Shown one piece after another: positions 6,733 to 40,269 of a stretch of 64,000 nucleotides of DNA. The DNA is taken from assembly GCA_034780895.1 (NCBI GenBank), contig JAUZTB010000076.1:90501038-90565037 (forward strand), read 5' to 3'. The notes beneath the pieces were generated by a model. The model was given only the letters and a program-made list of their open reading frames with translations. It searched no databases and was not told the origin of the DNA. Source of the stretch: Rhynchobatus australiae (Eukaryota). Both the position numbers and the translations under genes were made by a program. Every line of letters starts with the position of its first letter. Position 1 is the stretch's first letter.

Positions 6733-6859
6733 TATGTTTCGGGTATCAATTCCCAGGGAAATCAGAAGCTTTTTGTTGCTGTGGGAACCACCCCACTGGT
6801 ACCTCAGGCCATGAGCATCTTCCACATCTTGTAGCTCAGTCCACACAGCCAACAACTCC
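6733..6859 (-). CDS. AFTPH: Aftiphilin coding exon (ELLAVWTELQDVEDAHGLRYQWGGSHSNKKLLISLGIDTRNI)
   Basis: Conserved aftiphilin C-terminal domain with the YQW motif. ttgtgcag acceptor and gtaagt donor; 127 nt, phase consistent with the neighbouring exons. Confidence 0.95.
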
Positions 6860-7165
6860 CTGCACAACCAAAAGGAATCATAAGACTGATCGACATAATG
6901 TGACTCAGTACACTAACTGTTGCTTTTCTTTACATCATTTATAAATTGATTTCTTTCACAGCTTACAACATAAATAGGTTTTAGCATATAGAATTATTAC
7001 ATAATTCAAAGCAGAGTACATTTGGCAAAACAAAATTTTGGTTGTCACATACAACTCTGAAATTNNNNNNNNNNNNNNNNAGCCTCCATTAATAAAATGA
7101 ATCACCTTCAAAACCAACTTTAAATGAACTTAATCTTCCACCTTGTGTACTGTCTGCAGCCTTAC

Positions 7166-7311
7166 CCATTGTTTGCCTGGACCTCCTCTCCTTCCCCAAA
7201 TCCAGACTGCAAAAGCTGTCTCAGAGAAGAGACTTCTCCTTCATTTATCTTTAGTACTGGCACAGGAGGAAAACACGTTTGGAATATGCGACCCAGGCGG
7301 TTTAGAAGGAC
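7166..7311 (-). CDS. AFTPH: Aftiphilin coding exon (VLLNRLGRIFQTCFPP...QANNG)
   Basis: tttaatgcag acceptor and gtaagg donor; 146 nt, phase 0 to 2. Resembles the recalled aftiphilin LLNRLERIFEACFP. Not shown in the ORF track. Confidence 0.9.
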
Positions 7312-9134
7312 CTGCATTAAACAGGCAACAACATGTAATAGTTTAACTATTTTTTTCCAATTCTAACCACTACAAAAAAAAGTCAAATTTAATGAGAACA
7401 CATAACAGAATGGCAGCCTTGCAGGACCAAAAGCTTTAATGGATCATTACTACAACCTGCTAGTTTTTTAAAAGGTTTGTTCACACTTTGCTCCTTTCTA
7501 ATAAGGATCTATCCCTCCTACTCAGTGTTCCCTCCACTAACAATGGGAGGACAAGTTCAACAGGTGAAGACCAGCTCAGGTGTCCCCGGTCAACATTATC
7601 CACAAAAGAGAAACATCACACAGAAGTAGTCAAGGGAGGGAGCACAGAGTGATGAGATATTTTCAAGAATCCAAAACAGGACCAAAGGATTGAAACCACC
7701 TGTAAAGCTTTGCCTTAGCATGCAACACCAGCACTGAAATCATATCAAAAGAATAGCTTTGCCTCCAAAGTGGAGAAAATATGAATTCAGCTAGTTAGGC
7801 TCTACTATATTCATTTTCCCCCAATCGTTGTATTCTGAGCAAACAGGCTTAGATTTTGTAGTCAGTAGCAAAGACATGTTTACCACATATCTGAAAGGAA
7901 GCAGCCCACAAAAGTCTAGTGACCTCTATGCTGTCATTCTTCTGAGATCTGCTGTTGCTGACTCTAATTCAGTGGGATCTCTGGCATTCAGCAACTATGA
8001 GGTCAGAAAGCAGCCAGCTGTAATAAAAATTGTTCTCTGACAGCAAACCAGGAAAAGGGCAAAGCATAACTTAAGCAATATTTTAACCATTTTACACAGT
8101 GCAAATGAAAGATTGAAAGATGCATTAAGCTGAAACATCCAGCTTTTTAAATTAATTTGGAATCCAATGAATTTTGAAATATGTATGAGAGAGATTTACA
8201 ATCCATATACACTTTTTAAAAAGGGGTCCGGAGTCTGCCAATTAGTATTAACAATTTTGTATTCCATTAAAAGTTCTCACAGCACAAAGTGCAACATTTC
8301 TATGGTGCATTACAGTAAAAAAAGTTTGGAAATCTCAGGTTTTGGTCAATCAACTAATTTCAGGANNNNNNNNNNNNNNNNNNNNNNNNNNNNNNNNNNN
8401 NNNNNNNNNNNNNNNNNNNNNNNNNNNNNNNNNNNNNNNNNNNNNNNNNNNNNNNNNNNNNNNNNCAACTAATTTCAGGAGCAGTGAGCCATAACATCAT
8501 TTCACTGTATACATGCATATAGCAGAAACTCATCGATTTCACAGTATAATGACAATGAACGATGGCACATGTGCAGTCACCGCAAATACAAAATCAAAGG
8601 CATTATTTAAAGATATATTAGAGGACTTGCACAGATCTGGCTGTTTCACAGCATTCATTAAAAAGAACACATAGCAATTAAATATGGAATCAGCATGAAA
8701 AATGAAATGAGCAAATACCAACAGGCAAATGCCGATGCAAGCTAGTTGCCCAACAATCGCTACATTAAAGCAGAAAAGCCTCAGTGAAGCCTGTGGGGCG
8801 CCACAAGGAATATAATCAAATAACGTGGGTGGGCAAGACTACACAAAAAGTGATCATAAGCACTTCAGATGGCAAAGCCAGAGACAATCTTGCATCAATT
8901 TTGACATGACAACTAATGGCAAAAGTACTCAGTCTTGTTAAATTTGCTGAGGTTTCCTCACAAACACCTGGGGAGGTGTCACATAGATCAGTTCAGCAAC
9001 AGCCCAAAAGAGCTCCACCCCCAAAAGTACACCAGGCAGATAACATAACAGCCTTCACAATCCCTTGGTATGTCCTGTCCCATGGACAAGAAGGAGGTGG
9101 CACCGAGTAGCCCTTGCACTTAAGATTTAAGCAT

Positions 9135-9525
9135 GGACTGGTAGCGTAGCAGTTAGCATGACGCTATTACAGCGCCAGTGATCAGGGTTCGATTCCCACT
9201 GTCTGTAAGGAGTTTGTAAGTTCTCCCGTGTCTGCGTGGGTTTCCTCTGGGTGCTCCGNNNNNNNNNNNNNNNNNNNNNNNNNNNNNNNNNNNNNNNNNN
9301 NNNNNNNNNNNNNNNNNNNNNNNNNNNNNNNNNNNNNNNNNNNNNNNNNNNNNNNNNNCTGTAAGGAGTTTGTAAGTTCTCCCGTGTCTGCGTGGGTTTC
9401 CTCTGGGTGCTCCGGTTTCCTCCCACATTCTAAAAGATGTACAGGTAGGTTAATAGGGGGTTTAAAATGGGCAGCGCAGACTCGTTGGGCTGGAAGGGCC
9501 TGTTACTATGCTGTAAATAAAATTT
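9135..9525 (+). mobile_element. tRNA-derived V-SINE
   Basis: A/B-box-like head (ggtagcgtagcagttagc..ggttcgattccc) and V domain gtctgcgtgggtttcctctgggtgctccggtttcctcccaca. Confidence 0.85.
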
Positions 9526-15600: not shown

Positions 15601-18600
15601 NNNNNNNNNNNNNNNNNNNNNNNNNNNNNNNNNNNNNNNNNNNNNNNNNNNNNNNNNNNNNNNNNNNNNNNNNNNNNNNNNNNNNNNNNNNNNNNNNNNN
15701 NNNNNNNNNNNNNNNNNNNNNNNNNNNNNNNNNNNNNNNNNNNNNNNNNNNNNNNNNNNNNNNNNNNNNNNNNNNNNNNNNNNNNNNNNNNNNNNNNNNN
15801 NNNNNNNNNNNNNNNNNNNNNNNNNNNNNNNNNNNNNNNNNNNNNNNNNNNNNNNNNNNNNNNNNNNNNNNNNNNNNNNNNNNNNNNNNNNNNNNNNNNN
15901 NNNNNNNNNNNNNNNNNNNNNNNNNNNNNNNNNNNNNNNNNNNNNNNNNNNNNNNNNNNNNNNNNNNNNNNNNNNNNNNNNNNNNNNNNNNNNNNNNNNN
16001 NNNNNNNNNNNNNNNNNNNNNNNNNNNNNNNNNNNNNNNNNNNNNNNNNNNNNNNNNNNNNNNNNNNNNNNNNNNNNNNNNNNNNNNNNNNNNNNNNNNN
16101 NNNNNNNNNNNNNNNNNNNNNNNNNNNNNNNNNNCATAAGGGGCAGAAATGAAGAGGTTTAACAGGAGGGGAACTATTTAAAGTAGACAATGAAGTGGTA
16201 AAAACATGGAAATAACAAATGATAAACTTGGGTCAAACTGCCAATTAAAAACACATGCAAATGAACACAAAACAAATTACATGGGCCTAATTGCTCAGCC
16301 ATCATTTGGATATTTGTATTCTGGTATGTGCAGACTACTGCATGAGCAAATATTTACTAGATCAAAAGTCTGTACATTTTACAAATATATATCTATAACA
16401 TTAACAGCAGCCTGAGTACAAAGATGAGAAACAGTAGGTACTGCCATTAACCCAACATGATAACCTGGAATCAAGACTGCATTTCAATTTCGAACACAAT
16501 TAAAATTACATTTTCCAATAAAAATCAATAATGAGAATTGCCAAATGACACAGTTAGTATTACTGATCCACTGCCTTACATTAAGTTTTTAAATTAAAAG
16601 CAAAAGTTAAAAGGAATAATCCGAAAGTAGTGGACAAGCTAAAACTGGGTAAAAAGAAAATAGAAGCTCAATGCAGATGTGCAGCAAAATAGTGGAATTT
16701 GAAAAAAACAAAGCCAATTATCCAAGGTAACCAGCATCAGGTAGTGGGAGAAACAACCAAGACTAATCAAACACTTCAGTGAACTATACAAATCAATTGA
16801 AAGAGATCCATCTCATCAAGCCACAAGTTTTAAGCTTCTTTATTTAGCTATAGTTTGCTGTTGCCTTGCTCCATTGTGCAAAAGATCCCACAACTTGCTC
16901 ACTTAAAAATGTGGGTCCCATTGTGTAGTGAAAAAGATTCTGCTTCTCTCTATTTCCTTGACGAATAAGGTTCAACTACCCTTTTAGCATTTATTAATCC
17001 TCCCCCTCCCACATAGTAAAATGAACATGAAAGTTTTTGGGTGCATGGCTGAATAAGATTTTAGCAGCTAACCAGAACTGGTGAAAATCCCAGCATTCAA
17101 AAAACCTTTAATGTGAAATACAGAACTAATCCAAGTGCTTCCTCCACACCCAACTAGTGATGAAATAGCAAACTGCTGTACACCACCAGCCCCTTCTCCC
17201 CTCGTAGAACTGCTGGATCTGTCCCTCTAGCTTCTTGTGTGATAATTCAAAAACAACCAAGGCAATGGACTCAAATGCAAGCACCTAACACAAATATACA
17301 AATCAGCATTAAAAAACATTGTGAATTTTAGACTGCTACTTTACAATAAGCATTTTCTTTGCTGCAACTTTAAAACCATGAGCTTTGTAGAATCCATCTT
17401 AGGCAATGACAAAGGCATGCCAATTATTCTGCTTTTCAAATACGCCACTGAGAGCCTGAGTAAAAGAAATTAATGGAAATGAGGAAGAAAGTTCACCCAT
17501 ATCCAAACTGACATCTGGCACAAAGTATGTCGGTTATATTTGTGGGAGGTCAATCACCTCAATTCATGGATTGCTCAATCTAGCCCCCAAATACCTTCTG
17601 CAGTTTCTATTGTTTTCCTTCCATCAGCATCAAAAGTAGGGCTCTTTGGAGATTAAGTACTCAGTCCATCCACAAATCCTCAGATAGGGTACTCCATGTA
17701 CACATGCAAAAAGACCTTAATAACATCCAAGTTTGGGCTGTAACATCTATATCACAGGAGCCAACCACCTCCAAAAGAGCATTTAATTACCCCTCCCCAA
17801 CAGTACCTTTGCAGAAGCCTTCAATCTTCAACCATCCTAATGGTCATTACTCCAATAAACAAAATGCTTGGGGATTCAGTGGTGAGATTTTCCAGACAAA
17901 TGAATGTTATTTGTATTAATACCACAACACACTTTAAATTCATTTTTTAAAGAAATGTTACACAGTTTCATAGGAGTGCAAACCCTAGTGCCCAGCAAGT
18001 TTCAGGGAGGTGTGAGAACTTTGGCCACTACTAAGTTCTTATCAGAGTTCTACTGTACTGGCAATTCACACAAAATTGACTGGATACACTAATTCAATGG
18101 GTAACTAGTGGAAGTCAGCGGTTGATTAAATTCTGGTGAGCACTTGNNNNNNNNNNNNNNNNNNNNNNNNNNNNNNNNNNNNNNNNNNNNNNNNNNNNNN
18201 NNNNNNNNNNNNNNNNNNNNNNNNNNNNNNNNNNNNNNNNNNNNNNNNNNNNNNNNNNNNNNNNNNNNNNNNNNNNNNNNNNNNNNNNNNNNNNNNNNNN
18301 NNNNNNNNNNNNNNNNNNNNNNNNNNNNNNNNNNNNNNNNNNNNNNNNNNNNNNNNNNNNCTAAGTGTGATACCAAGTTCATTACTTGTCTGGATGGATG
18401 CAGCTGCACTGAGCAAGCAGGACAAAGCTATCACACAGTCAGCCCTTCATCTTATGCCCCAACCATCTATTCTCTTCAAGAATGAATTTTAATAAATACT
18501 ACAGCAACAAAATACTTTTTTATAATTCTAAGGGTCTGAAGCTGCTGTCAATGTTTATTGCCAAAACTTAATTGCCCTTAAAGATAGCCAATCGCTTGAC

Positions 18601-18604
18601 TTTA

Positions 18605-19040
18605 GAGTCATAGAGGACTACACACAGAAACTGACCCTTTGGCCCATCTAGTCCATGCTGACCTGATCTTCCACCTAATCCCATCTACCTGCACTCAGAC
18701 CATATCCCTCCAAACCCCTCCCATCCATGTACCTATCTAAACCTCTCAAACGTTACAATTGAACCTGCATTTACCATTTCCACTGGCAGCTCATTCCATG
18801 CTCACACCACCCTCTGAGTGAATAAGTTTCCCCTCAGATTCCCCTTGTATATTTCACCCTAAACCCATGTCCTCCAGTTCTAGTGTCACCCAACTTCAGT
18901 GGAAAAAGCCTGCATATGCATTCACCCTATCTAGACCACTGAATTTTGTATACTTTTATAAGATCTCCCCTCTTTCTCCTGCGCTTCAGGGAATAAAGTC
19001 CTAACCTATTCAACCTTTCCCTATAACACAGGTCCTCTGC
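18605..19040 (-). mobile_element. CR1 LINE 3' end
   Basis: Typical shark CR1 tail (gacccttTggcccatctagtcc, ctcaccaccctctgagtg, aagtcctaacctattcaacct). Confidence 0.7.
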
Positions 19041-19939
19041 AGTTCCTGTGGTAAAGGTGGTCCCACAGTGCTAATGGGAAGAGTATTCAATATCCAACCT
19101 GGCAACAATGAAGAAATGGCAGTACATTCCATTTAGAAATTTTGCCACATTTATGCTGCTTACATCCTTCAAGATTATGCATATCCAGGGTTTGGTAATG
19201 TGGTCAATGTCACTTCCCAGAGTTAACTACAGTACATATTGCAAATTGAATAACCATGATCCACATATAGTGGAGGGTATGAACATTTAGGAAGGAAGAC
19301 AGTCTGCTAATGTAGTGGCTACTTTTTCTTGAATGGCATCAAGCTTTCCAAACACTGAGTATCCCAATACATCCCAAAGTGTGCCTTGCAGATGGTGAAT
19401 CTGCTTTGGGAGTCAGGAGTGAGATACTCACTGCCATCTTCCTAGCCTGTCATGCTGTTGCAATTAAGTTTTTGTTCATTGCTGGGGTACTCAGCAATGG
19501 CTACAAGCAGGTAGGAAGGTAAATGGCATGTCCTCTATGGCTAAAGGATTTGAGTACAAGATTGTTTCATCTATCTAAAGCCCTGGCAAGACTCAGCGAA
19601 TGCTGTAGAAAGACTGGTTTCACTACTCAAGGAAAAAGAGACACTTATGATGGAGAGAGTGCAAAGATTCACCAAATTGATTCATAGGATGGCAGGTTTG
19701 TCCTAATAAGGAGAGATTACAATTGTTAGGTATTAAAATGACACAGGGACATGGGGTTACTACAGGAAATTGGCACCAAGTTAAAAGATCAGCTGTGATC
19801 TTATTGTGCAGCCAAGGAGGTACAAGGTGCTGAAGGGTCTACTGCTGCTATTTCTGATATTTTTAAGATATCAGTGTCAGGCATTTGCAAGATGCACATG
19901 TTATTTACCACTTAGCCCATGAAATTCAAAAAAATTGCA

Positions 19940-21000
19940 GGTGCTAGAAAGTCTGCAATAAAAACAAAATTCTGTAAATAGTAGATTAGGCAACATTTAT
20001 GGAAAGAGAAACAGGTACAAAATCCTTTGTCAGAAGGGAGGAGTGGATAGAATAAAGGGAATCTCTCTGAAAGGATGAGGCCAGGGTTTACGTCAGGATA
20101 AGCTGTACTGGTCATGCAGGCCATGGGTTAACAGGCATTTGGAGAGAGAAATGAACAATATGAAAATTGGGTAGCTGGAGAAAAATACAAATAAGTGTAA
20201 AAACTCAAAATGCAAAGTTGACAGACATGCCCAGCAGGTACAGCTGTGCTATTGCAAAGAGAAACTGAACCAATATCACAGATGGCTGAATTACAGCAGA
20301 AGCAGCAGGTTCTGATGCAGACAGAAAAAGTTGGCCTAGTTGATAACCGTGCAGTAGGCCACAGACCAATATATTAGAGTGGGAGTAGGATGAAGAATTA
20401 AAGTGACAGGTAACCCCGAGTCACCTCTGCAGACTAAACACAGGTCCCCCAGCAAAGCAGTCACCCAATCTGTGTTTGATTTGTCCAATGTGGAGACTAA
20501 CACATGGTGACCACCAAATGCAATTCTTTAGGACTACAATATGTGCAAGTGGGCCACTGCATCATCTGGAAGGACTGTTCAGGTCCCTGGATGATGGGAA
20601 AGGAAGAGGTAGTTTTTCATCTCCTGCTGTTGCATGGGAATATGCCATTAAGGAAGTGGTTGATGGGAACAGAAGAATACATCAGGAGTCACTAAGGATG
20701 CAGTTCCTTCAAAATGCTGAAGGCAAAGCAAAAGGAATGTGTCTGGTGGAGGAACCCAGTTGAAATTGGTGGAAAGTACAGAGGATGACCCAGTGAATGC
20801 AGATGGATGGAAACTAAGGACCAGCAGAATTCTATCCTTGCTCTGTGAAAGGGGGTGAAAACAAAGGTGCAGGAAATAAATGAGGTGAAGCTATGGTAGA
20901 AGGGAAGCTATGGTTCGGGAAGACAGACATCTGAATCATCTGTGTGATAAGCCTCATTACTGGAGCAAATTGAGTGGAGACTGGAACTAGGAGAACAGAA
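19940..21000 (-). mobile_element. Decayed Penelope-like element (GIY-YIG region)
   Basis: Minus strand reads QGPEQSFQM....TCT, followed by a frameshifted remnant of the C..C..HIGQ.K.RLGD.FA motif of Penelope endonucleases. Confidence 0.65.
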
Positions 21001-21465
21001 TGGTCCTTGGAGGCAGGAAAGGAGAGAGAGTTGAGATATCACGTTGTCCAGGTTTTGCTGCAAGCAGATACAGACTCTGCTTACACATGGAATAGAACAT
21101 TTGCTATCACCAGCAAACAGCCCATATTTGGCTTTGTTATGAAGGAAGGTCAATGAAACTAATTCAACTAAGGCAAATCACTTCAATACTTGACTCCAAC
21201 TCAGAGACCAGGAAGCATCTACCCTAAACACATCTGCCTGCTTTTTCAAATGTTTACTTCATTCTTTCTTAACTGAGTTCAACTTCATAGCTACTTGGGA
21301 TAAAGCACTTTAACATCCTTATTTTGTTTTCAGTATCAAAATACATATCCCCTTGTTGGCAATTTGTAAGCAGAACTAACTTTTCTATTTATTGTCATAA
21401 ATGCTCAATTTTTAAACTCTCCAGCTTCACATAATCTTTTCCACTCCAATGAGTACAGCCTTATG

Positions 21466-23004
21466 CAGTGGCATGCAAAAGTTTGGGCACCCTGGTCAAA
21501 ATTTGTTACCATGAATAGTTGAGTAGAAGATGAACGGATCTCCAAAAGTCAAAGTTACAGATGAAACATTCTTTTCAACATTTTAAGCAAGACTAGTGTA
21601 TTATTTTGGTTTTGTGCAATTTTAGAGTGAAAAAAAAAGGAAAGGAGCACCATGCAAAAGTTTGGGCACCCCAAGAGATTTGACTCTCAGATAATTTTTA
21701 CCAAGGTCTCAGACCTTCATTAGCTTGTTAGGGCTATGGCTTGTGTTCACAGTCATTGTTAGGAAAGACCAGGTGATGCAAATTTCAAAGTTTTAAATAC
21801 CCTGACTCCTCAAACCTTGTCTCAACAGTCAGCAGCCATGGGCTCCTCTAAGCAGCTGCTTGCACTCTGAAAATTAAAATAAATGATGCCCACAAAGCAG
21901 AAGGCGGCTATGAGATAGCAAAGCGCTTTCAGGTAGCTGTTTCCTCAGTTCATAATGCAATTAAGTTAACAGGAACAGTGGATGTCAAGTTGAGGTCTAG
22001 AAGACCAAGAAAAACTTTGAGAGAACTGCTTGTGGGATTGCTAGAAAGACAAATCAAAACCCCCATTCAGGAAGATTTAGCAGACTCTGGAGTGGTGGTG
22101 CACTGTTCTACTGTGCAGCAACACCTGCACAAATATGACCTTCATGGAAGAGTCATCAGAAGAAAACCTTTCCTGTGTCTTCACTACAAGATTCAGCGTC
22201 AGAAGTTTGCGAAGGAATCTAAACAAGCCTGATGCACTTTGGAAACAAGTCCTGTGGACTGATGAAATTAAAATAGAATTTTTTGGCTGCAATGAGCAAA
22301 GGTATGTTTGGAGAAAAAAAGATGCAGAGTTTCATGAAAAGAACACCTCTTCAACTGTTAAGCACGGGGGTGGATCAATCACGCTTTGGGCTTATGTTGC
22401 AGCCAGTGGTACGGGGAACATTTCACTGGTAGAGGGAAGAATGAATTCAATTAAATACTAGCAAATTCTGGAAGCAAACACCACATTGTCTTTTAAAAAA
22501 AAAGCTGAAGAAGAAAAGAGGATGGCTTCTACAACAGGATAATGATCCTAAACTCATCTCAAAATCCACAACAGGCACAAGCTGAAGGTTTTGCCATGGC
22601 CCTCACAATCCCCCAACCCAAACATCATCGAAAATCTGTGGACAGACCTCAAAAGAGCAGTGCATGCAATACAGCCCAAGAATCTCACAGAACTAGAAGC
22701 CTTTTGAAAGGAAGAATGGGGGAAAATCCTCCAAACAAGAATTGAAAGACTCTTAGTTAGCTACAGCAAGCGTTTACAGGCTGTGATACTTGCCAAAGGG
22801 GGTGTTACTAAGTACTGACCGTGCAGGGTGCCCAAACTTTTGCTTTGGGCCCTTTTTCTTTTTTGTTATTTAGAAACTGTAAAAGATGGAAATAAAAAGT
22901 AACCTTGCTTAAAATATTAAAGAGATGCGTCATCTTTTACTCACTTAGCTATTCACAGTACCAGAGATTTTGACCAGGGGTGCCCAAACCTTTGTATGCC
23001 ACTG
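21466..23004 (+). mobile_element. Tc1-family DNA transposon (IR/DR, DD34E), near full length, transposase disrupted (copy 1)
   Basis: Termini CAGTGGCATGCAAAAGTTTGGGCACCC ... GGGTGCCCAAACCTTTGTATGCCACTG|TA. Internal direct repeats near 21652 and 22826. Transposase motifs RPRK, LWTDE, KHGGGSI, QQDNDPK and IENLW, from ATG 21838 to TGA 22818, with frameshifts and stops. Confidence 0.95.
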
Positions 23005-23840
23005 TAGCTGGATACTGAATGACAGGAGCATGTGTGGGTAACCCCTGGATTACTGATCTTTTTCTGACTTAAGGTAAATAAAGGGATTCAGATATTTTGT
23101 AATCTACAATCATTCAAAACTAAATGCATAGATGTGTTGACAACGGATCTGCACACCAAAGCCCCGTAAGTTCTAATTCTTCAAAACTTGTTGGGGCCTT
23201 TCTGAGCACTAATCAATGCCTTTAAAGGCCCTAGTGGGTGTATGGAATAGCTGTGTGTGTCAAGTTGCCTCAATACCACATGATAGTTTATCCACAAATT
23301 CAACACTTTTAGGGTGATGAAGACGAAGATTAAAACTTGCCAATGATTCTGGATGAGAAACCACTGAGTCTAGAACCAAAATGTTTCGGTCCTTACTGTA
23401 TGTTCAGTTAGGTGATCACATCAGAGCAGTAGGTGGATGCTACTGCAAGATGGGGAAGGAAAGAAATATTCAGGGCTCCTACTCAACAACCACAAAAAAT
23501 GCTTGTGGTGTTAGTGGCATTCACTGTGTAGGCTCACACGGAAGTGACCAACTGGTTGGGGTACCAAGGCTTGTGCAAACACACATCAGAATGTTACAAA
23601 ATTTTACCAACACAACTCATATAGTATGACCACGTCAAGTATAAACTTACAAATGCATTGTGGCAGGTAAGGAAATACAGTAAATGAGAATACTCCACAT
23701 TTATTTTATATTGCTGAAAATTCAGTAAAACACTAAATGCGATTTGATTTGTTGAAATAGTTCTCAACACTTTCCAAAACCATTTGTTCCACAACATCAG
23801 TAAGGAGGGAGGGAGAGACATAGTTAGTGGACCAGTACAC

Positions 23841-23957
23841 CTGCCTGTTGCTCCTTCGATGACATCTGCTTTGCTCCCACAAGAGCCACCTTGCTTGCTC
23901 TCTTACTTCGTGCTTTTTATGCCGCAAAGCAAATGCTTCATCTGAAGTGTCCTCTAA
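23841..23957 (-). other. KANSL1L: Isolated exon-like segment resembling the KANSL1L (NSL complex) PEHE domain
   Basis: Translates LEDTSDEAFALRHKKHEVREQARWLLWEQSRCHRRSNR(Q), close to the recalled KANSL1L EDLSDEVFSLRHKKYEEREQARWSLWEQSKWHRRNSR. Preceded by the acceptor cctgtcttgcag and followed by AG|gcaggt or CAG|gtgtac donors. Confidence 0.75.
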
Positions 23958-24244
23958 CTGCAAGACAGGCAATGACCAACAGAAGTTAGTATCTTGTTCC
24001 CAATTAGGTCCTATTAAAACACTTCTAGAAATCCACCAAGAGAAAAGTTTTTGAAGACTAAAGATACAGAAAATGCTGTCTATATCCAAAGCCCGTGAAA
24101 AGAGTGCAATAGCTTAAGAACATGCAGTGGATGGGGAAGAGAGGNNNNNNNNNNNNNNNNNNNNNNNNNNNNNNNNNNNNNNNNNNNNNNNNNNNNNNNN
24201 NNNNNNNNNNNNNNNNNNNNNNNNNNNNNNNNNNNNNNNNNNNN

Positions 24245-24764
24245 AACAGGATAATGATCCTAAACACACCTCAAAATCCACAATGGACTACCTCAAGAGG
24301 CACAAGCTGAAGGTTTTGCCACAGCCCTCACAGTGCCCTGACCTAAACATCATTGAAAATCTGTGGATAGACCTCAAAAGAGCAGAGAGCAGTGCACGCA
24401 AGATGGCCCAAGTATCCCACAGAACTAGAAGCCTTTTGCAAGGAAGAATGGGCGAAGGTCCCCCAGAACTGAAAGACTCTTAGCTGGCTATAGAAAGCGT
24501 TTACAAGCTGTGAAACTCCCCAAAAGGGAGGTGTTACTAACTACTGACCATGCAGGGTGCCCAAACTTTTGCTTTGGGCCCTTTTCCTTTGTTATTTTGA
24601 AACTGTAAAAGATAGGAATAAAAAAGTAATCTTGCTTAAAATATTAAAGGAACATGTCATCTTTAACTTGATGCCTTTTGGAAATCAGGTCAACTTTTAC
24701 TCGCTTAGCTATTCACAGTAACAGAAATTTTGACCAGGGATGCCCAAACATTTGCATGCCACTG
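24245..24764 (+). mobile_element. Tc1 right-hand fragment (copy 2), begins at a 100-N gap
   Basis: [34 protein letters not shown] (D-34-E), followed by the right terminal repeat ending GCATGCCACTG. Confidence 0.92.
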
Positions 24765-25909
24765 AACTTGTCTCTTACAACTATATCCCAAACCCTTATG
24801 CAATTTTAGTGAAACTATATTGCACTGTAATATGGCTAAAATGTTTATAATTTAGAGCCAATAACTCAAAAGCAGATTATTTTACAACATTCTCCTTTTA
24901 CTTCTAGCCTCCATCCCCATTTACAAAGTTGTAGAATCATGTGTCCTTTTTTCACCTGGCATTTGCATTGGTTGCAGTCCTTAAGCAAAGTTTCAATGCA
25001 ACCTGAATTTGTAATTAGAGATCAACTTATTGCTACAAAGTGAAACTTCTTGATTAATGGACTTCAATTTACTCAGAAATGCGCACTAGCAATTCTGAAG
25101 GAATGTTATCCGAATCCTTATTTACAGAATTCTACTGCTACCTGCACAAACTATATAGGTCTGACCTGTTGGTCTGATTACAAAGGCATTACAGACCATT
25201 CAATGCAACTGCTCTATGCAAACAATTATGCTCTTGACAATGCTCCTTATTTCCCACTCTACTTTTTCTAGTTTGTACTAGTCTAGCCTTCCCAATCGCA
25301 TGCACCTGGACATGGTGCAAATTCCACAAACTAACCATACTCAGCACAAAGAAGTTTCTTAATTCCTTATTGCATTTAGGAACCAGAGTTGTGGTTTTTC
25401 TTTCCACATACATGAACTTCTTTTCAATATCTAGCCTATTAAACCCTATATAATTTTACAAAAGTCTCATTAGGCAATTGATCTCTATTTACAATATCAT
25501 AGGAGATTATACAGAAGTGTTTTCAATATAAAAGCCAATCAGGTTCCACTTTTATGCAACTACTTATGTTATATTTTATAAATTATAACCCACAGACAAG
25601 ATCACAAAACAGCAATATGCCATGCATTGAAAAATCAAGAGAGATTTCCATTACAAATTGAGTACATTCTAAACAGGAAGCTCATTAGCAGTTCACAGCT
25701 CAAAAACTTAAGACAGAAACTTCAGCAGTTCAATTTATAGATGGAACTCATCGGTGCTCCATTACAGGGTTCCACTCAAAAGCAGACTGACTTAAGATAT
25801 TAATACTTCTATGATGCATGACTTAAAATTTGAAACTAAATCAGCACACATTAGATGGATTTAATCTTTNNNNTTTAATGTACCAATGTGCAATGTCAGC
25901 AACACTTAC

Positions 25910-28016
25910 TTGTGTCATAGTTACTTCACATGGAGTTGTTCTCGTCATTTCATCAATAGGCCGAAAGGAGGTACTGTCCATCTTGTCAGTCGACTGTGTA
26001 CTACTGCTAAGGGCAGGTTCTGTCCTGTTGCATTCACTAATTTCTTCTTTGCATTCACCAGACTGCTCTTCACCAAAAGCTGCCCATGATGTACTTTCAG
26101 GCACTGAATCCCCAAAAGCATTCCACTCAGCATCTTGCCCATCAAGTGAAAAGTCTTCTTCATTATTGAATCCTGCAAATTCAGAATCATTTTTAACTTG
26201 AGTGGACCCAAATTCTCCAAAATCATCAGTCTTTGTAACAGTGGTAGCAGCTTCATGCTCATCAAACGCTAAATCAGCAGCTTCGGATAGTGCTCCCTTT
26301 TCTGGAGGATATTCTGGAAAACTGGCAAATGTTGATACACAGTCATTGTTTGTGGTATCAAAGTCACCAAATTCATCTTTTACTCCAGCTTCCTGAAATG
26401 TAGCAAATTCTTCAGTTGTCAATTTTGAGATATTCTTGCCACCAGAGTCTACAGGTTGCACATCAGAACTAAAAACATCCTCTGTAGCACTGGTATGTAT
26501 TCCTGGTGTAAAAGCAGAAAAGTCACCTTCTAGTGAACATTTGCTTCTTGAAATTCCAAAACCATCAGACTCTTTTTCTTCTGTCCTTTNNNNNNNNNNN
26601 NNNNNNNNNNNNNNNNNNNNNNNNNNNNNNNNNNNNNNNNNNNNNNNNNNNNNNNNNNNNNNNNNNNNNNNNNNNNNNNNNNNNNNNNNCTATGTTAGTT
26701 GCCGGAAGTTCTTCAATTACTACATTGTCTTGTCCAACCACCAACTCATTACACACAATACACTGTGAATAAATACCAAGTGTTTCTTCATCATGGTTGC
26801 AAGTTTCCAAATCAGACTTGTGTATGTCCTCTATTTTATTTACTGAGGGAGAAGTTTCTGATTGGACCACTGTGGAAGTGGTTTCTTTTACTGTGCCCAA
26901 AGATTCATGAACTGCCTGCCAAGTATTTTGATCCCTGATTTCAATGTGTTCCATCGATTCTGATGAATTCTGAATGCCATTAGGAATTCCTGTATCGACT
27001 GTAGTATTAAGCTCAGAGTGGCCACTCTGAATATAGTCTACTACAATTGTACCTTTCACATTTTTACAATCTGATGTAGCAAATGCACCCTTTGTTTGTT
27101 CTTGCACCACTTTCAGTTCATCACTATCAACTGCAAGGTCCAAACTGACCTGAGCAACAGGCAGTTTCCCTAAAGCTGAAGGATTGCCAGAGTCATGCTC
27201 TTGTATCAGTGGTATTTTTCCAATGGTAGATAAAGAACCTCTTGTTTTTTCTTCTGTTAAATTGGCAGACATTACTGCATTTTCTGACATTGNNNNNNNN
27301 NNGCTTCCCATCTGAACAGAGTTCAGAAATGTGAACATTTACAGCCATTTGGTCATTTGTGTTGATCATATTTTCTATTCCCTGAGAGTGTATTGAATCT
27401 ATTGTTGAGTAACCATTTGTTAGAACTTCTGGGTTGGTCTTACTATCATTGTAACACTGTTCTTGCTCTTCCCGTTTTAAATCTATTGCAATGACATCCT
27501 TGGTCAGGATGGCAGGCTGAGCATTTACTTCAGTTTGTTCCAAAGATTCAACGGTTGTACATTCAAAAACATTCCTTGAAGATTTGGATTGAGTTGCATC
27601 TTTATCAATAGATATAGCCATGTCATTTGACATAGGCTTCGAGAAGTCTGAAACAAAGTCTTTGCCATCACATGNNNNNNNNNNNNNNNNNNNNNNNNNN
27701 NNNNNNNNNNNNNNNNNNNNNNNNNNNNNNNNNNNNNNNNNNNNNNNNNNNNNNNNNNNNNNNNNNNNNNNNNNCCTGCTGAATGAAAGTCAGCAAACCC
27801 ATGCGTATCACCGGAGTATTCGTGGCCAGGCACAAAATGGTTCTGGGACATAAAATTTTCATGGGGATCTTCCAAATCAAAGTCATTATACCCAAGGGTA
27901 GAAGTACCAACTCCTGAGAAACCACCAAATTCACCAAACTCATCTTCATCAAATTCAGTCCCATCATCTAATGGTGGTGGTGAAGAAGAATACATTCTAA
28001 TAACATCTGGTTCCAT
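25910..28016 (-). CDS. AFTPH: Aftiphilin, large first coding exon (exon spans 28041-25910; interrupted by three N gaps)
   Basis: Starts MEPDVIRMYSSSPPPLDDG..DEDEFGEFGGF, the aftiphilin N-terminus. Acidic region contains DEFGDF, DDFGEF, EWNAF and SWAAF adaptor-binding motifs. Acceptor ctttttcccctctag|GTTTAA at 28041 and donor ACACAA|gtaagt at 25910. Frame changes coincide with the N gaps. Confidence 0.95.
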
Positions 28017-28579: not shown

Positions 28580-29620
28580 ATGATTCTCTTTACAATATTT
28601 TTATTAAGTCCATGAAAAAAAGAGTACATGCATCAAAAGAGAGTAAAAATACTACTGAATACGTTGTGTTAAATCATACCTAGGATCACAATACTCTAAA
28701 TTAATAATCACATGTAATAGTTAATAAAAGAAAATTGGAATATTATAAAAAATCTACTCTACCAAAAACTGAAGCTGTTTGATTAAAAAGAAACAAGGAA
28801 AAACCCTTGAAACGTAACAATGTCAGCCAATGTCTGTACTTCAGTAACCAAATCAAAGATTGAAAATAATTCAAAAAAGGTCCCCACAGAGTTTGAAAGT
28901 CTAAGTTAGATTCAAAAACTGAACAACAAATCTTCTCTAGATTCATGCATGACATAACATCCTGTAACCATTGAGCACGAGTAGGTGGAGTAACTTCCTC
29001 ACATTTAAGCAACACAGCTCTCCTGGCTGTAAGAGAAATAAAAGCCAGAATGTGTAAATCAGAAGCCTTCAAAGTTATATCTTTTTCTCCAACAATCCCA
29101 AATAATGCAATCAAAGGATTAAGTTTAAAATTTATTTTGAAAAGTACAGAAGTTTGAAAGACCTCTGTCCAATATTTAAGACTGACACGTCCAGAACACA
29201 TGAATTAAAGACGTCACTCCGTTATTGCATTTGTCACAATAAGGAGATACATNNNNNNNNNNNNNNNNNNNNNNNNNNNNNNNNNNNNNNNNNNNNNNNN
29301 NNNNNNNNNNNNNNNNNNNNNNNNNNNNNNNNNNNNNNNNNNNNNNNNNNNNCACTCCGTTATTGCATTTGTCACAATAAGGAGATACATTGGAATAAAA
29401 AAATGGGATAGTTTAATCTTTAGATAAGTGAGCTCTGTGGACCACTTTAAATTGAAGGAGAGAATGATGGGCGCATAATGACAAAGTATTAACCAATTTA
29501 AAAATTTCATTTTAAGTTTCCTCAGAAATTGACATCTGCAAATCTTGTTCCCAAATGTCTTTAAATTTTATCTAGTGGCACCTTACTCATTCCTGGTAAC
29601 CTGTCATAAATATTAGATAT
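28580..29620 (-). mobile_element. L1/Tx1-type LINE, ORF2 C-terminus and 3' end
   Basis: YWTEVFQT..LNPLIALFG..ARRAVLLK..PPT..WL..LEKI..W.PF, typical of the fish L1-like ORF2 tail. A T-rich end near 28600 is consistent with a poly-A tail on the minus strand. Confidence 0.8.
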
Positions 29621-33277: not shown

Positions 33278-34873
33278 CAGAGGCATGCAGAAGTTTGGGC
33301 ACCCCTGGTCAAAATTTCTGTTACTGTGAATAGTTAAACGAGTAAAAGATGACCTGATTTCCAAAACGCATCAAGTTAAAGATGACACGTTCCTTTAATA
33401 TTTTAAGCAAGATTACTTTATTTCCATCTTTTACAGTTTCAAAATAACAAAAAAGGAAAAGAGCCCAAAGCAAAAGTTTGGGCACCCTGCATGGTCAGTA
33501 CTTAGTAACACCCCCTTTGGGTAGTTTCGCAGCTTGTAAACGCTTTCTATAGCCAGAAAAGTGTCTTTCAGTTCTGGGGGATTTTCACCCATTCTTCCTT
33601 ACAAAAGGCTTCTAGTTCTGTGAGATTCTTGGGCCATCTTGCGTGCACTGCTCTTTTGATATCTATCCACAGATTTTCAATGATGCTTAGGTCAGGGCAC
33701 TGTGAGGGCCATGGCAAAATCTTCAGCTTGTGCCTCTTGAGGTGGTCCATTGTGGAATCTGAGGTGAGTTTAGGATCATGATCCTGTTGTAGAAGCCATC
33801 CTCTTTTCATCTTCAGCTTTTTTTTGTTACAGACAGTGTGATGTTTCCTTCCAGAATTTGCTGGTATTTAATTGAATTCATTCTTCCCACTACCAGCAAA
33901 ATGTTCCCCTTGCCACTGGCTGCAACACAAGCCCAAAGCATGATCGATCCACCCCCGTGCTTAACAATTGGAGAGGTGTTCTCTTCTGCACCCTCTTTTC
34001 TCCAAACATACCTTTTCTCATTGCGGCCAAAAAGTTTTATTTTAACCTCATCAGTCCATAGGACTTGTTTCCAAAATGCATCAGGCTTGTTTAGATATTC
34101 CTTTGCAAACTTCTGACGCTGAATTTTGTGGTGAGGACGCAGGAAAGGTTTTCTTCTGATGACTCTTCCATGAAGGTCATGTTTGTGCAGGTGTCGCTGC
34201 ACAGTGGAACAGTGCACCACCACCACTCCAGAGTCCGTTAAATCTTCCTGAAGGTTTTTTGCAGTCAAACGGGGGTTTTGATTTGCCTTTCTAGCAATCC
34301 TACGAGCAGTTCTCTCAGAAAGTTTTCTTGGCCTTCCAGACCTCAACTTGACCTCCACCATTCCTGTTAACTGCCATTTCTTAATTACATTACGAACTGA
34401 GGAAACAGCTACCTGAAAACTTTGTTATCCTCTTACAGCCTTCTCCTGCTTTGTGGGCATTATTTAGTTTTCAGAGTGCAAGGCAGCTGCTGAGAGGAGC
34501 CCATGGCTGCTGATTGTTGGGACACGGTTTGAGAAGTCAGGGTATTTCTAAAGCTTTGAAATTTGCATCACCTGGTCTTTCCTAGTGATGACTGAACAAG
34601 CCATAGCCCTAACAAGCTAACGAAGGTCTGAGACCTTGGTAAGAGTTATCTGAGAGCTCAAGTCTCTGGGGGGGCCCAAACTTTTGCATGGTGCTCCTTT
34701 CCTCCCCCCCCCACTCAAATTGTACAGAACAAAAATAATACACTAATCTTGCTTAAAATGTTGAAAAGAATGTTTAACTTTGACTTTTGTAGATCAGTTC
34801 ATCTTCTACTCACTTAACTATTTACAGTAACAGAAATTTTGACTAGGGGTACCCAAACTTTTGCATGCTACTA
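33278..34873 (-). mobile_element. Tc1-family transposon, near full length, frameshifted transposase (copy 3)
   Basis: ORFs 34361-33813 (SGRPRKLS..LWTDE..KHGGGSIMLW) and 33810-33568 (QQDHDPK..IENLW). TA|CAGAGGCATGCAGAAGTTTGGGCACCC terminus at 33278 and the matching opposite end. Confidence 0.95.
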
Positions 34874-35610
34874 TGTATTGAAACCAGGACAATGCTAACT
34901 TGCTTTGATAAAGCAGGAACTGCAACTATTAGAGAATTTTCTTTGCCTATACATATATATGGAAAAAAATACCTTGTACATGACCTTTGCAAAACAGTGC
35001 AGCATTAGCTTTATGGAATGCAAATACAACTGATCTGTCTCTACTCAAGTGTACAGAACTAGGGGACAGTGATCTCAGTTTCTGGCTACCCTGCCTGACC
35101 AACTTGCCCAATTACTCTGGACAAGTGAGTAATTTGGGCTTGAGCACAGTCTGTTTAAAATGCACACGGTTGCCAACTGTTAGCATTAAGTATAAGCTGT
35201 AATTTGTAAATTAATGCTTCAAAACACATGGAGGGGAGGTGGTGTAACCAACTTAAGCAATTGCATCAAAACCAGCAAATTAAATGGCAGCACAGCACCA
35301 TTTATTAGTCAAATGCAGAATTAAGATAATTCAGTGAACAGAGCCCATTACCCTCCCCCACCTGGTTCCAACTGCCCACCACTCTCACACTTAATCCACT
35401 GGGTCTTCCACCCCAACCTAGTCCAATCTGCCCACCATCCCAGCCTTATCTGGCTCCACTCGCCACCTTCCTTATCAGATTCTGGAATCTGCAGCCTTTT
35501 GAGTCTCCACNNNNNNNNNNNNNNNNNNNNNNNNNNNNNNNNNNNNNNNNNNNNNNNNNNNNNNNNNNNNNNNNNNNNNNNNNNNNNNNNNNNNNNNNNN
35601 NNNNNNNNNN

Positions 35611-36057
35611 GCTTTGTGGGCATCATTTATTTTAATTTTCAGAGTGCTAGGCAGCTGCTTAGAGGAGCCCATGGCTGCTGATTGTTGAGACAAGGTTTGA
35701 GTCGTCAGAGTATTTATAAAGCTTTGAAATTTGCATCACCTGGCCTTTTCTAACAATGACTGAACAAGCCAAAGCCCTAACAAGCTAATGAAGGTTTGAG
35801 ACCTTGATAAAAGTTATCCGAGAGTCAAATCTCTTGGGGTGCCCAAACTTTTGTATGGTGCTCCTTTACTTTTTTTTCCCCCTCCACTCTAAAATTGTAC
35901 AAAACCAAAATAATACACTAATCTTGCTTAAAATGTCAAAAAGAATGCTTCATCTTTAACTGTACGACTTTTGGAGATCAGTTCATCTTCTACTCACTTA
36001 ACCATTCACAGTAACAGAAATTTTGACCAGGGGTGCCCAAACTTCTGCATACGACTG
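35611..36057 (-). mobile_element. Tc1 left-hand fragment (copy 4), ends at a 100-N gap
   Basis: Transposase start MGSSKQLPSTLKIKINDAHK plus the left terminal repeat ending ...GCATACGACTG|TA. Confidence 0.92.
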
Positions 36058-37295: not shown

Positions 37296-40269
37296 TCATG
37301 ATATGGTTTAAAACTACATTAATTCTTTAGAAGTTATCCACTGATTATGGTCATAACTTTTAAGCCATTTCCTAATCTACTATTGCTTCATGCCTTTGTA
37401 GTTTATTCAGATTGAAGAATAAAATAAATCCCTTTAGTATTTACATAAAATTCTCTCATTATGATCACTGATCCCAAAAGATTCCCTATCTACAATATCA
37501 ACCAACTTTTCATTACACAGTACTAGATCCAAAATGGTCTGCTTCATCAATGGGCTCTCAGCACAGTGATTTCACACAGTCCATGCTATTCCTTTGTCAC
37601 TGGGTGCCATCCTGGAACTTTCTCCCTCAACAGCAGCAAAGATGTGAAGGGCTGCACATCAAGGCGGCAGCTCACCAACACCTTCAAGTGCAGTTGGGAA
37701 TAGGCAATAAATGCAGGTGTTGCCAGTGACACCAAGATCCTAAAAAAATATATATTTCAAGACTGGACTTTGCTGAAAAATTGTTATGTTTTGTAATTCG
37801 GTCTCACAAAACCCAAGGCAATGTAGCATTTGATAACAGAGGGATTCAAAGCTCTCCAGTTTAAGTACTTATTTCCAAAATTTGGCATCTTGTAACTTCT
37901 GTTCTCAATTTCTTGTTTAACTATCTTTTAAACTCACACTTTCCCAACATCTTCCCTACATCAAGTTAATCCACTTGATTTCTAAGATGTTTCCCCTTGG
38001 TTTGCTGTCCANNNNNNNNNNNNNNNNNNNNNNNNNNNNNNNNNNNNNNNNNNNNNNNNNNNNNNNNNNNNNNNNNNNNNNNNNNNNNNNNNNNNNNNNN
38101 NNNNNNNNNNNNNNNNNNNNNNNNNNNNNNNNNNNNNNNNNNNNNNNNNNNNNNNNNNNNNNNNNNNNNNNNNNNNNNNNNNNNNNNNNNNNNNNNNNNN
38201 NNNNNNNNNNNNNNNNNCCCTGGAAAACTAATTCTAAATACTACTTCTTCAGTTCAATTTAGATCAAAGACAACATTCACTTTCAAAACTATCACCTGGA
38301 AAATAAATCACTCAAATATACAGTTGTGAAATGTGCACATAGTGATTTCATTCCAATATACAAGGAAAATGTATTATTCCTGCAAATGTTTCCTTAATAT
38401 CTGCATGAATAAAAATTTACAATCAAATATCCACATGATCTTAAAAAATAACTTGCTTAAAAAGTTGAACTGCAAGCCCAACATTTCAATACAGGCAACA
38501 CAAGTGTTTCTTCTATAAATGCTAATTGAATCATTTCCATCATGTCATTTCATCTCCATGAAGCCAATTAACCCCCTTACTCAGAAATCATTATTTTCAT
38601 TTTAAAAGCCATTTTTAAATCAAAGGCAAAGTGGCCACATGACAAACTTGAAATTCACAGACTGTCATTATAAATAGCACACCCTGTCAATGATTTGCCC
38701 ACCAATAAACACATCAGCTGAAAATCAATAGTAAAAACATTGTTTCTTGTTTTTTTCTTAATCAGCTGCACAAACAGTTTAGGGATATAAAATAAAGCCA
38801 AAAAAATTATCAACACCACTTCTTACACACATTCCTCTCCAGATACAAGCTCACAGATACCTGGAACTTTACCTATAGTAATCACCCAAAGCCTATTCAA
38901 CTCCAAATAACCAAATTCTTTATTGAAACCAAAATGAAGATGCACAAAAATGAGACTATCCTCCACAGTTCTAAGCACTATAATAAAAAGATATTGTCAT
39001 AGAACATGCAGCTTGCACCAAACCACATAATTAGAAGCTAGCACGGAAGAATCGAGTGAAAAGTTAAAGAAAACATTATTAATAAAAAAAATGTCAAAAT
39101 TTCAAATCCATTATCCATTTAGTTTTTCTTTGAAAACACAAAAGGTTTGAATTATTTCTGCACCCAGTATACCATTTGCATTGTACACAATTTCCCTGGA
39201 TATTGTACAGAGTGTCTATGACAGCAAGACTTTACAAATTACTGATCATGCCTCTATAATAAAAACAGATGCTGGAAACACTTAGCAATCCAGACAGCAT
39301 CCATGGAAAGAGAAAAAGAGTTAACATACACTCTTCTTTAGAATAAAGAATCTGACAAAACATTGTGCATCCAAAATAGTTTCTCTTTCCACAGATGCCA
39401 GTGATGTGCTAAGTATTCCCAGCATTTTCTGTTTATATTTCAGATTTCAAATCTTGTCTCTATGACATCCATAGCTTTAAGAGTAAATTGACTGAATCAG
39501 GAACTCACGCATGTTTGCTCTGTTATAAACCAAGACCATTTTTGTTCAAAAATTTAATTAAAAAGCTAATTATAAAACTTTTAAATTAAATAAAATGAGG
39601 TAGCAGTAAAAACAAAGTTGCCACCCTCACCACACAATGTTTAATGGTCATTGTTGATCATTTGTATAAAGGAATATTTGCTCTATTTCCTACTTAGTCT
39701 CTTGATTATGCTTAAACATTGAGTTTATTTTATCAAAATAGAAATCCAAAATGTAACCATAGAATAAAAATCCTGTAGTTATTTTAAATGGACATTCAGA
39801 AGACACCTACAAGTTAGACGATAGCCACGTTGAAATAACTGAATTTCAAGGTTACATCAATCATTTTCTTACAGACCAGAGTCAGTTTATGGGGATTATG
39901 CTATCTAAACTTTGTTAATTTAAATACTTGAATCTTACGGTTGGATATTATCACATACTAAATGGAAGATTTACGATATTAAACACTGCAAACGTCACCT
40001 TTGGCTGGCAGCTAAGAGGCACACCTGAATGGACAAGTCTTCGAGTTAACTATTCTATTTATATAAACAATAGTTGAATCCAACAAGGTATTATGAACAA
40101 AACCAGCGAAGGAATGGGTGACAGGGTACGAAAGGCAGGTTAGAGACATGAAGGTAAAAGCAGCTCACAGTAAGCAGCTAGGCCAGAGCTCCCAAATCCA
40201 ATTTGCTCACGGGATGTTGACCTTAAGCAGCTTCCAAACTCTTTCTATTTGGTAGGTGAATGATTACGG

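What the first reader, a model, noticed from the sequence alone, without database searches (positions are those of the whole stretch)
23005..24144. KANSL1L-like PEHE exon with intronic flanks stranded between Tc1 ends inside an AFTPH intron
Seen: a stop-free 38-39 codon segment (LEDTSDEAFALRHKKHEVREQARWLLWEQSRCHRRSNR) bounded by a polypyrimidine-cag acceptor and a donor. It sits in 1.1 kb that starts at the TA after Tc1 copy 1 and ends at the gap before Tc1 copy 2. Knowledge: as I recall, this matches the PEHE (MOF/KAT8-binding) domain of KANSL1L, which is not an AFTPH neighbour in mammals. Retained splice signals argue against a retrocopy. Inference: DNA-level capture of a host exon by a composite or Pack-type Tc1, or an assembly chimera that crossed from one Tc1 copy into the flank of another at the KANSL1L locus.
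Basis: partly seen in the sequence, partly recalled or inferred. Interest (0 to 1): 0.8.

Follow-up and report, generated by a model that had tools for sequence, protein, structure and literature searches.

The report
Misassembled KANSL1L exon beside a transposon
A real exon of one gene (KANSL1L) appears inside an intron of another gene (aftiphilin) in a ray-like fish genome, most likely because the assembly crossed from one transposon copy into the neighbourhood of another, so it is probably an ordinary assembly error rather than gene capture.

Summary
Window 23845-23957 (minus) is a 113-nt KANSL1L PEHE-domain exon: Pfam PEHE E=3e-13; 38 of 38 residues identical to sawfish (Pristis) KANSL1L; homology starts at the acceptor and ends at a GC donor. 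It lies in intron 2 of an aftiphilin gene, between a complete decayed Tc1 and a 100-N gap followed by the last third of another Tc1. The capture reading is weak: the insert is outside copy 1's own right end, the outer target sites are TG and AA (not TA), all transposases are broken, yet the exon is pristine. The same layout (whole Tc1, unique stretch, 100-N gap, Tc1 end) recurs 11 kb away, and 6 of the 7 other 100-N gaps have a true size of 2 bases or less (4 are overlaps). Best reading (0.83): one intronic Tc1, with the left contig overshooting through the repeat into the flank of a Tc1 at the native KANSL1L locus. A chimera test on the Tc1 copies was inconclusive. A recent ectopic repair event (DDSA type) stays possible (about 0.09). 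Reads and the native locus could not be checked.

The parts
21466..23004 (+). Tc1 copy 1, full length (both inverted ends), transposase broken by 6 frameshifts and 2 stops; TG before its left end, TA after its right end; presumed crossing point of the assembly lies somewhere inside it
23005..24144 (.). 1,140-bp insert, single copy in the window: TA plus intronic flank of the KANSL1L exon (inferred to be native KANSL1L locus sequence)
   Evidence: no other blastn hit in the window at E<=1e-3
23845..23957 (-). KANSL1L exon, 113 nt, phase 0 to phase 2, encoding part of the PEHE domain; CAG acceptor, GC donor
24145..24244 (.). 100-N gap, a class that in this window marks zero or negative distance; hides the decisive junction
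24245..24764 (+). Tc1 copy 2: distal third only (transposase residues 243-340 plus right end), 11% different from copy 1, followed by AA
25910..28016 (-). Aftiphilin(-like) coding exon 2 (host gene, upstream of the insert)
7165..7311 (-). Aftiphilin(-like) exon 3 (host gene, downstream of the insert); further exons at 6721-6858, 6014-6070, about 4639-4770
33278..36057 (-). Second case of the same layout: whole Tc1 copy 3 (33278-34873), 637 bp non-Tc1 (34874-35510), 100-N gap (35511-35610), Tc1 end copy 4 (35611-36057)

Best explanation
Assembly overshoot through a repeat. In the real genome aftiphilin intron 2 holds one old Tc1, whose left part is the start of copy 1 and whose right part is copy 2. 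The contig coming from the left entered that Tc1, continued on reads from other members of the family and left it through the right end of a different member, which sits about 840 bp downstream of the PEHE exon in the native KANSL1L gene; it ran 1.1 kb into that flank and stopped. The contig from the right reaches only 520 bp into the true element. The two overlap by about 1.6 kb, cannot be merged, and are joined by a placeholder gap of 100 N. Shown: the anatomy, the exon identity, the behaviour of 100-N gaps, the second case. Inferred: the crossing inside copy 1, the Tc1 at the native locus, the software step.
For: (1) The only non-homologous junction is hidden in a gap. (2) Of the 9 gaps of exactly 100 N, 2 are the Tc1 cases; of the other 7, 4 have exact overlaps of 15, 56, 38 and 26 bases, 2 inside aftiphilin exon 2 have best-fitting sizes of 0 and 2 bases against the Pristis protein, 1 is undetermined; a whole second Tc1 would need about +1,120 bases in the gap, overshoot gives about -1,612. 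(3) The same four-part layout occurs at 33278-36057; both Tc1 fragments (520 and 447 bp) start exactly at the gap. (4) The exon is 38/38 identical to Pristis KANSL1L with splice sites intact, whereas aftiphilin exon 2 is about 90-98% identical to Pristis by segment and the Tc1 copies differ by 7-12% with broken frames. (5) KANSL1L and this aftiphilin are on contigs of different length in 6 of 7 comparable sharks and rays, including Pristis. (6) Every link from aftiphilin exon 3 to the left end of copy 1 is a sized gap or an exact overlap. (7) Distances fit two single elements split at the gaps: copy 1 5' vs copy 4 7.2%, copy 2 vs copy 3 3' 7.1%. (8) Exons of one gene falsely placed in another, with gaps beside them, are a described error class (PMC9516828, passages); in one benchmark 20 of 2,417 partial gap extensions by GapCloser were validated (PMC6551238, passages).
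Against: No reads or second assembly were available, so the error is not shown. The chimera test is not decisive: the asymmetry in private substitutions (copy 1: 11/409 at the 5' end, 34/462 at the 3' end; interaction p=0.0005) is equally explained by two subfamilies without any chimera, and copies 2 and 3 do share derived states; a change-point test along the transposase gave p=0.49; deletion clustering in copy 1 was marginal and post hoc (13 of 17 in the 5' half, p=0.049; KS p=0.08). No switch point was located. If copy 1-left and copy 2 are one element, both its target-site TAs have mutated, expected in only 0.4-1.8% of copies at 3-7% divergence. In Narcine the two genes are on a contig of the same length. 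The PEHE exon is well conserved anyway (35-37 of 38 between Pristis and four other rays).
Confidence: 0.83

Rival explanations
1. Real, recent ectopic repair (duplication-dependent strand annealing, DDSA). A break in the intronic Tc1 was repaired from a Tc1 at the KANSL1L locus; synthesis ran through that copy's end into 1.1 kb or more of flank and then re-joined the broken element. This gives the same anatomy as the artefact.
For: The anatomy matches DDSA as described in PMC3276153 (passages): a break in a repeat repaired from an ectopic copy of that repeat. It needs no transposase and no fresh target site, and a recent date explains the unchanged exon.
Against: It would have to occur twice in 15 kb with the non-homologous junction falling in a 100-N gap each time. 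Family members differ by 7-12%, which disfavours ectopic pairing (general knowledge). The exon is in sense to aftiphilin with intact splice sites, and inclusion with the GC donor gives a stop at codon 41, so a cost is expected (inference). Donor and host are on different chromosomes in the closest relative, while single-copy captures in animals are mostly in cis (PMC8277862, section 8).
Confidence: 0.09
2. Mis-scaffolded contig: the whole contig 18361-24144 (left flank, copy 1, exon) is a true piece of the KANSL1L gene placed here by repeat-derived links. Also an artefact, but without a crossing inside copy 1.
For: No aftiphilin exon anchors 18361-21465 (no Pfam hit above cut-off in 29 frames there). 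Copy 1 was not shown to be a chimera.
Against: The left link is a sized gap of 214 N, not the 100-N class; no other Tc1 left end is present to partner copy 2; no further KANSL1L exon is in the window.
Confidence: 0.04
3. Composite or Pack-type Tc1 transposition: two Tc1 copies flanking the exon (or one element bypassing its end) were moved as a unit by transposase into the aftiphilin intron.
For: The exon lies between a left Tc1 end and a right Tc1 end in the same orientation. End bypass is known for P elements (PMC8277862, passages). An intact 340-aa relative, 90% identical to copy 3, exists in the protein set.
Against: A recent move must leave TA on both outer sides; they read TG and AA. An old move must have let the exon decay: chance of no amino-acid change is 0.11, 0.057, 0.015 and 0.002 at 2.7, 3.5, 5 and 7.4% divergence, before counting indels, splice sites and the distance to Pristis. 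A whole copy 2 does not fit a gap class of 2 bases or less. The insert is outside copy 1's right end, unlike a Pack-TIR.
Confidence: 0.03

Closest known systems
False chimeric gain (type 3 false duplication) of Ko et al. 2022, PMC9516828 (passages read)
   Same: An exon of one gene sits inside another gene next to an assembly gap.
   Different: Their example (ALDH2 exons in ACAD10) involves adjacent genes and haplotype duplication; here the donor is probably on another chromosome and the route is a dispersed Tc1 repeat. Their read-depth and discordant-pair criteria could not be tested.
Pack-TIRs of animals, Tan et al. 2021, PMC8277862 (abstract, sections 8 and 14 and passages read)
   Same: Host sequence of 100-5,000 bp with an exon and intronic flanks, TIR-element sequence on both sides.
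   Different: A Pack-TIR interrupts one element with only a small part of it missing (median 4.6%) and its parent is not linked to a TE; here copy 1 is complete, 472 bp of element is present twice in 11%-divergent form, and one junction is a gap.
Duplication-dependent strand annealing (DDSA), as described in PMC3276153 (passages read; the original 2007 paper not read)
   Same: Predicts repeat, flank of the ectopic repeat, then rest of the broken repeat: the anatomy seen.
   Different: The junction signature cannot be seen (gap), and the layout recurs at a second gap.
KANSL1L PEHE exon of sharks and rays (Pristis pectinata, P0002 residues 893-930)
   Same: 38 of 38 residues identical, boundaries at the splice sites.
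   Different: Alone: no other KANSL1L exon in 64 kb; covers 41 of 127 PEHE profile positions.
Tc1 elements with long IR/DR ends (Sleeping Beauty-like; label from Pfam HTH_SB PF25787 on relatives; IR/DR term recalled)
   Same: About 1.6 kb, ends of about 210 bp with an outer and inner repeat, 340-aa transposase in relatives, TA target.
   Different: All copies here are broken; 75% identity to the named Monopterus albus protein over the 203-aa query; no family name could be assigned.

Membership tests
KANSL1L PEHE exon | Pfam PEHE match above curated cut-off | tested here: met
   50.7 bits vs 34
KANSL1L PEHE exon | Best relatives are KANSL1L and homology ends at splice sites | tested here: met
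   14 of 16 hits named KANSL1L; 0 differences to Pristis; match limited to the 38 residues
Pack-TIR (Tan et al. 2021) | Captured sequence lies inside one element, between its 5' and 3' parts | tested here: not met
   Copy 1 has its own right end and TA before the insert
Pack-TIR (Tan et al. 2021) | Internal sequence 100-5,000 bp | tested here: met
   1,140 bp visible
Pack-TIR (Tan et al. 2021) | Unique parental copy with no TE within 100 bp | not testable with these tools
   No eukaryotic genome collection; the anatomy predicts a Tc1 at the parent, which would fail the criterion
Pack-TIR (Tan et al. 2021) | Microhomology at a breakpoint | tested here: inconclusive
   One border is an element end plus TA, the other is in the gap
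Composite Tc1 / end-bypass transposition | TA target-site duplication on both outer sides | tested here: not met
   TG on the left, AA on the right
Composite Tc1 / end-bypass transposition | Age of cargo matches age of the element ends | tested here: inconclusive
   No amino-acid change in cargo; probability 0.11 to 0.002 under neutral decay at the copies' divergence: against, but not decisive at the lowest rate
DDSA duplication | Repeat at the breakpoint, shared with donor locus | tested here: inconclusive
   Repeat present here; donor locus not available
DDSA duplication | Real junction and two copies of the segment in the genome | not testable with these tools
   Junction is in a gap; no reads
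False chimeric gain (assembly error) | Foreign exon inside another gene, beside an assembly gap | tested here: met
False chimeric gain (assembly error) | Depth gap, discordant pairs, absence from a long-read assembly | not testable with these tools
   No reads or alternative assembly
False chimeric gain (assembly error) | Repeat at the crossing is a mosaic of copies | tested here: inconclusive
Retrocopy | Several exons joined, introns lost | tested here: not met
   Single exon with acceptor, donor and intronic flanks

The most novel reading that the evidence does not exclude
A recent, transposase-independent, inter-chromosomal repair event between two dead Tc1 copies dropped an intact KANSL1L PEHE exon, in sense, into a phase-0 intron of aftiphilin in a ray. 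The native GC donor would shift the frame, but a GT four bases downstream gives a 117-nt in-frame cassette that reads through exon 3: exon shuffling caught before decay. The second case at 33278-36057 would then mean that this Tc1 family is a hotspot for such templated insertions.
Probability: 0.09. Interest if true: 0.6.

Novelty: not a real feature. Interest (0 to 1): 0.1.

Why it matters
As an artefact it matters only as a warning: in this assembly a whole Tc1 followed by unique sequence, a 100-N gap and a Tc1 end should be treated as overshoot, and the KANSL1L gene model may be missing or duplicating this exon. It also predicts a testable fact, a Tc1 about 840 bp downstream of this exon at the native locus. 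If real, it would be a rare dated example of repeat-templated exon insertion between chromosomes in a slowly evolving vertebrate, with an in-frame route to a chimeric protein.

Tried and rejected
Retrocopy: rejected, single exon with intronic flanks. Native neighbour or nested gene: rejected, no other KANSL1L exon in the window with 10 KANSL1L queries, and different contigs in 6 of 7 species (left out: Chiloscyllium punctatum, different assemblies; Pristiophorus, no contig length; Scyliorhinus, different species). Recent tandem or haplotype duplication of the Tc1: rejected, copies 1 and 2 differ at 51 of 464 aligned bases and copy 2 is closer to copy 3. Chimera test by triplets: first looked strong (p=0.0005) but is confounded by subfamily structure; change-point scan p=0.49; comparison of the six element ends gave no consistent diagnostic. 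Search for foreign exons in the second insert, the left flank and the rest of the first insert: 45 frames, 0 above a Pfam cut-off, one weak PP2 hit (E 0.002, below cut-off) taken as chance (frames chosen by length). PDB sequence search with the exon peptide: 0 hits. Looking for a repeat at the insert ends that might have stopped extension: none for insert 1, weak hits only (E>=0.01) for insert 2. The cluster-member look-up, meant to see whether the same species has a KANSL1L lacking this exon, could not be made. Paper searches: 'KANSL1L'+'AFTPH' 1 paper, unrelated by listing; Tc1/elasmobranch/gene capture 48 papers, 12 listed, none on such a case by listing; 'GapCloser'+'misassembly'+'negative gap' 0 papers. 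No folding or complex prediction was run: not informative here.

Full report
1. Observation. The region is as described. Reading the plus strand: a Tc1 element from 21466 to 23004, TA at 23005-23006, unique sequence to 24144, 100 N, then the distal part of another Tc1 from 24245 to 24764. On the minus strand 23957-23845 is an exon behind the acceptor CCTGTCTTGCAG. Its frame matches Pfam PEHE at 50.7 bits, cut-off 34, E 3.3e-13. A search with a 41-residue query returned 16 proteins among 16 candidates, all with PF15275, all from cartilaginous fishes, 14 named KANSL1L. The 38 residues differ at 0 positions from Pristis pectinata, 1 from Narcine, 2 from Rhinoraja, 3 from stingray and devil rays (the counts of 8 for the two Scyliorhinus rows are inflated by an ungapped comparison). 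Similarity begins at the acceptor and ends at the last arginine; homologues go on with L, S or I, not Q, so the donor is AG|GC (113 nt, phase 0 to 2) and not the GT four bases on. That PEHE binds the KAT8/MOF acetyltransferase is recalled, not tested; the exon covers only profile positions 23-63 of 127.

2. Surroundings. The host gene is an aftiphilin ('aftiphilin-like' in the 11 named shark and ray hits; best Pristis, 87%), on the minus strand: exon 2 at 28016-25910, exon 3 from 7311, more exons to about 4640. The insert is in the intron between exons 2 and 3, in sense. The organism is thus a ray close to sawfish; it was not identified further. Ten KANSL1L proteins find no other exon in the window (all other hits E>=0.005). 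By the contig lengths listed with the hits, KANSL1L and this aftiphilin lie on different sequences in Pristis, Hemitrygon, Mobula hypostoma, Heptranchias, Carcharodon and Mustelus, and on one of the same length in Narcine: 6 of 7 comparable species (this is indirect, no coordinates were seen).

3. The gap. The window has 27 gaps, 9 of exactly 100 N. Four of these have exact sequence overlaps across them (15, 56, 38, 26 bases); two lie inside aftiphilin exon 2 and fit the Pristis protein best with 0 and 2 missing bases; one cannot be sized; the last two are the Tc1 cases. So in 6 of 7 controls, 100 N stands for 'about zero or negative'. That 100 N is a common placeholder for unknown or negative gaps is recalled. 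If copy 2 were a whole element, about 1,120 bases would be missing; if the left contig overshot, the true distance is about -1,612. Only the second fits, unless copy 2 is really truncated exactly at the contig break.

4. The second case. At 33278-36057 the layout repeats in the other orientation: whole Tc1, 637 bp of non-Tc1 sequence, 100 N, 447 bp of Tc1 ending in TA. In both cases the extra sequence is on the left contig and the fragment is on the right, of similar length (520, 447 bp). All four Tc1 pieces in the window take part in these two structures. The second insert has no recognisable coding sequence, so its foreign origin is not shown.

5. The elements. Copies differ by 7-12%. Against a 340-residue relative (P0031, unnamed; same picture with the named Monopterus albus protein P0033) copy 1 has 6 frameshifts and 2 stops, copy 2 has 3 frameshifts, copy 3 has 4. 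The outer dinucleotides of the supposed composite are TG and AA. A recent transposition should leave TA twice; an old one should have degraded the exon (chance of no amino-acid change 0.11 at 2.7% to 0.002 at 7.4%, 37 codons simulated). Neither timing fits well.

6. Is copy 1 a mosaic? Overshoot predicts that copy 1-left plus copy 2 are one element and copy 3's 3' part plus copy 4 another. Observed: private substitutions 11/409 (copy 1, 5') vs 13/462 (copy 2), and 16/409 (copy 4) vs 16/462 (copy 3, 3'); the parts next to the inserts are higher (34/462 and 26/409); interaction p=0.0005; distances between the two supposed elements are 7.2% and 7.1% at the two ends. But a tree of two subfamilies, (1,4) and (2,3), gives the same numbers without any mosaic, and copies 2 and 3 do share derived states (6 codon positions, three of them around a shared 5-base deletion). 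A change-point scan along the transposase was not significant (p=0.49); deletion clustering was marginal. The test is compatible with overshoot and does not prove it. One point runs against it: both target-site TAs of the presumed single element are changed, which has a chance of 0.4-1.8%.

7. Mechanism. Most likely (0.83): a contig or gap extension entered the intronic Tc1, switched to other family members, exited into the flank of a copy in the KANSL1L gene and stopped; the scaffold link then had negative distance. Shown are anatomy, exon identity, gap class and recurrence; inferred are the switch, the donor copy and the software. Rivals: a real recent DDSA-type repair (0.09), which gives the same anatomy but must have happened twice with the junction in a gap each time; a mis-scaffolded KANSL1L contig (0.04), disfavoured since the links to the left are sized or overlapping; composite or Pack-type transposition (0.03).

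8. Known systems. Ko et al. (PMC9516828; passages) name this error class false chimeric gain and note gaps and incorrect gap filling beside such errors. In PMC6551238 (passages) only 20 of 2,417 partial extensions by GapCloser were validated in one genome; which software made this assembly is unknown. Pack-TIRs (PMC8277862; abstract, sections 8 and 14, passages) interrupt a single element, are mostly captured in cis and exclude parents next to a TE; the present case fails the first feature, so it is not filed there. DDSA is cited from PMC3276153 (passages). Supplements of these papers were not read. Searches (listings only) showed no report of an AFTPH-KANSL1L fusion or of Tc1 exon capture in elasmobranchs; the library lacks most subscription papers.

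9. Unchecked. Reads, the native KANSL1L locus and any long-read ray assembly were out of reach; the cluster look-up could not be made.

10. Verdict. Real exon, wrong place: most likely not a real feature of the genome. Interest 0.1. If reads show the junction, it is a recent exon insertion with an in-frame option (117 nt via the downstream GT reads through exon 3; 113 nt stops at codon 41), and would deserve about 0.6.

Noticed in passing
window 33278-36057: Second 'whole Tc1 + 637 bp unique + 100-N gap + Tc1 end' structure; used as internal evidence for a systematic assembly error. Origin of the 637 bp unknown.
   Followed up: yes
window 23845/23844 (minus): The KANSL1L exon appears to use a GC donor (AG|GCAGGT); homologue sequences support the boundary, conservation of the GC in other species not checked.
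   Followed up: partly
window 26590-26689 and 27675-27774: Two 100-N gaps inside aftiphilin exon 2 have true sizes of about 0 and 2 bases, so they break the reading frame of an intact gene and will mislead annotation.
   Followed up: yes
window 8366-8465, 9259-9358, 29253-29352, 46133-46232: Exact duplications of 15, 56, 38 and 26 bases across 100-N gaps (unmerged overlaps).
   Followed up: yes
window 24245-24764 and 33278-33790: Tc1 copies 2 and 3 share a 5-base deletion and a few substitutions in the transposase tail, pointing to a defective sublineage that spread in trans.
   Followed up: partly
window 33813-34424 (minus): 203-codon stop-free transposase stretch, 90% identical to an intact 340-aa protein (P0031) and 75% to a Monopterus albus protein; family not named, horizontal transfer not examined.
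   Followed up: partly
window 21464-21465 and 24765-24766: Both outer target-site dinucleotides are non-TA (TG, AA); a little unexpected even for an old single element.
   Followed up: partly
window 25910-28016: The host gene's relatives are all named 'aftiphilin-like'; whether this is the orthologue of mammalian AFTPH or a paralogue was not tested.
   Followed up: no
window 40001-41000: G+C rises to 57%; possibly the promoter and first exon of the aftiphilin gene.
   Followed up: no
window 44349-44525 and 44914-45090: 177-base inverted repeat, 90% complementary, 388 bases apart, related to a short interspersed repeat also at 9139-9449, 53070-53264 and 58116-58386.
   Followed up: no
window 52553-53237, 53564-54165, 55648-55974: Reading frames that look by eye like decayed LINE reverse-transcriptase fragments, one interrupted by the short repeat at about 53070 (label recalled, not searched).
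   Followed up: no
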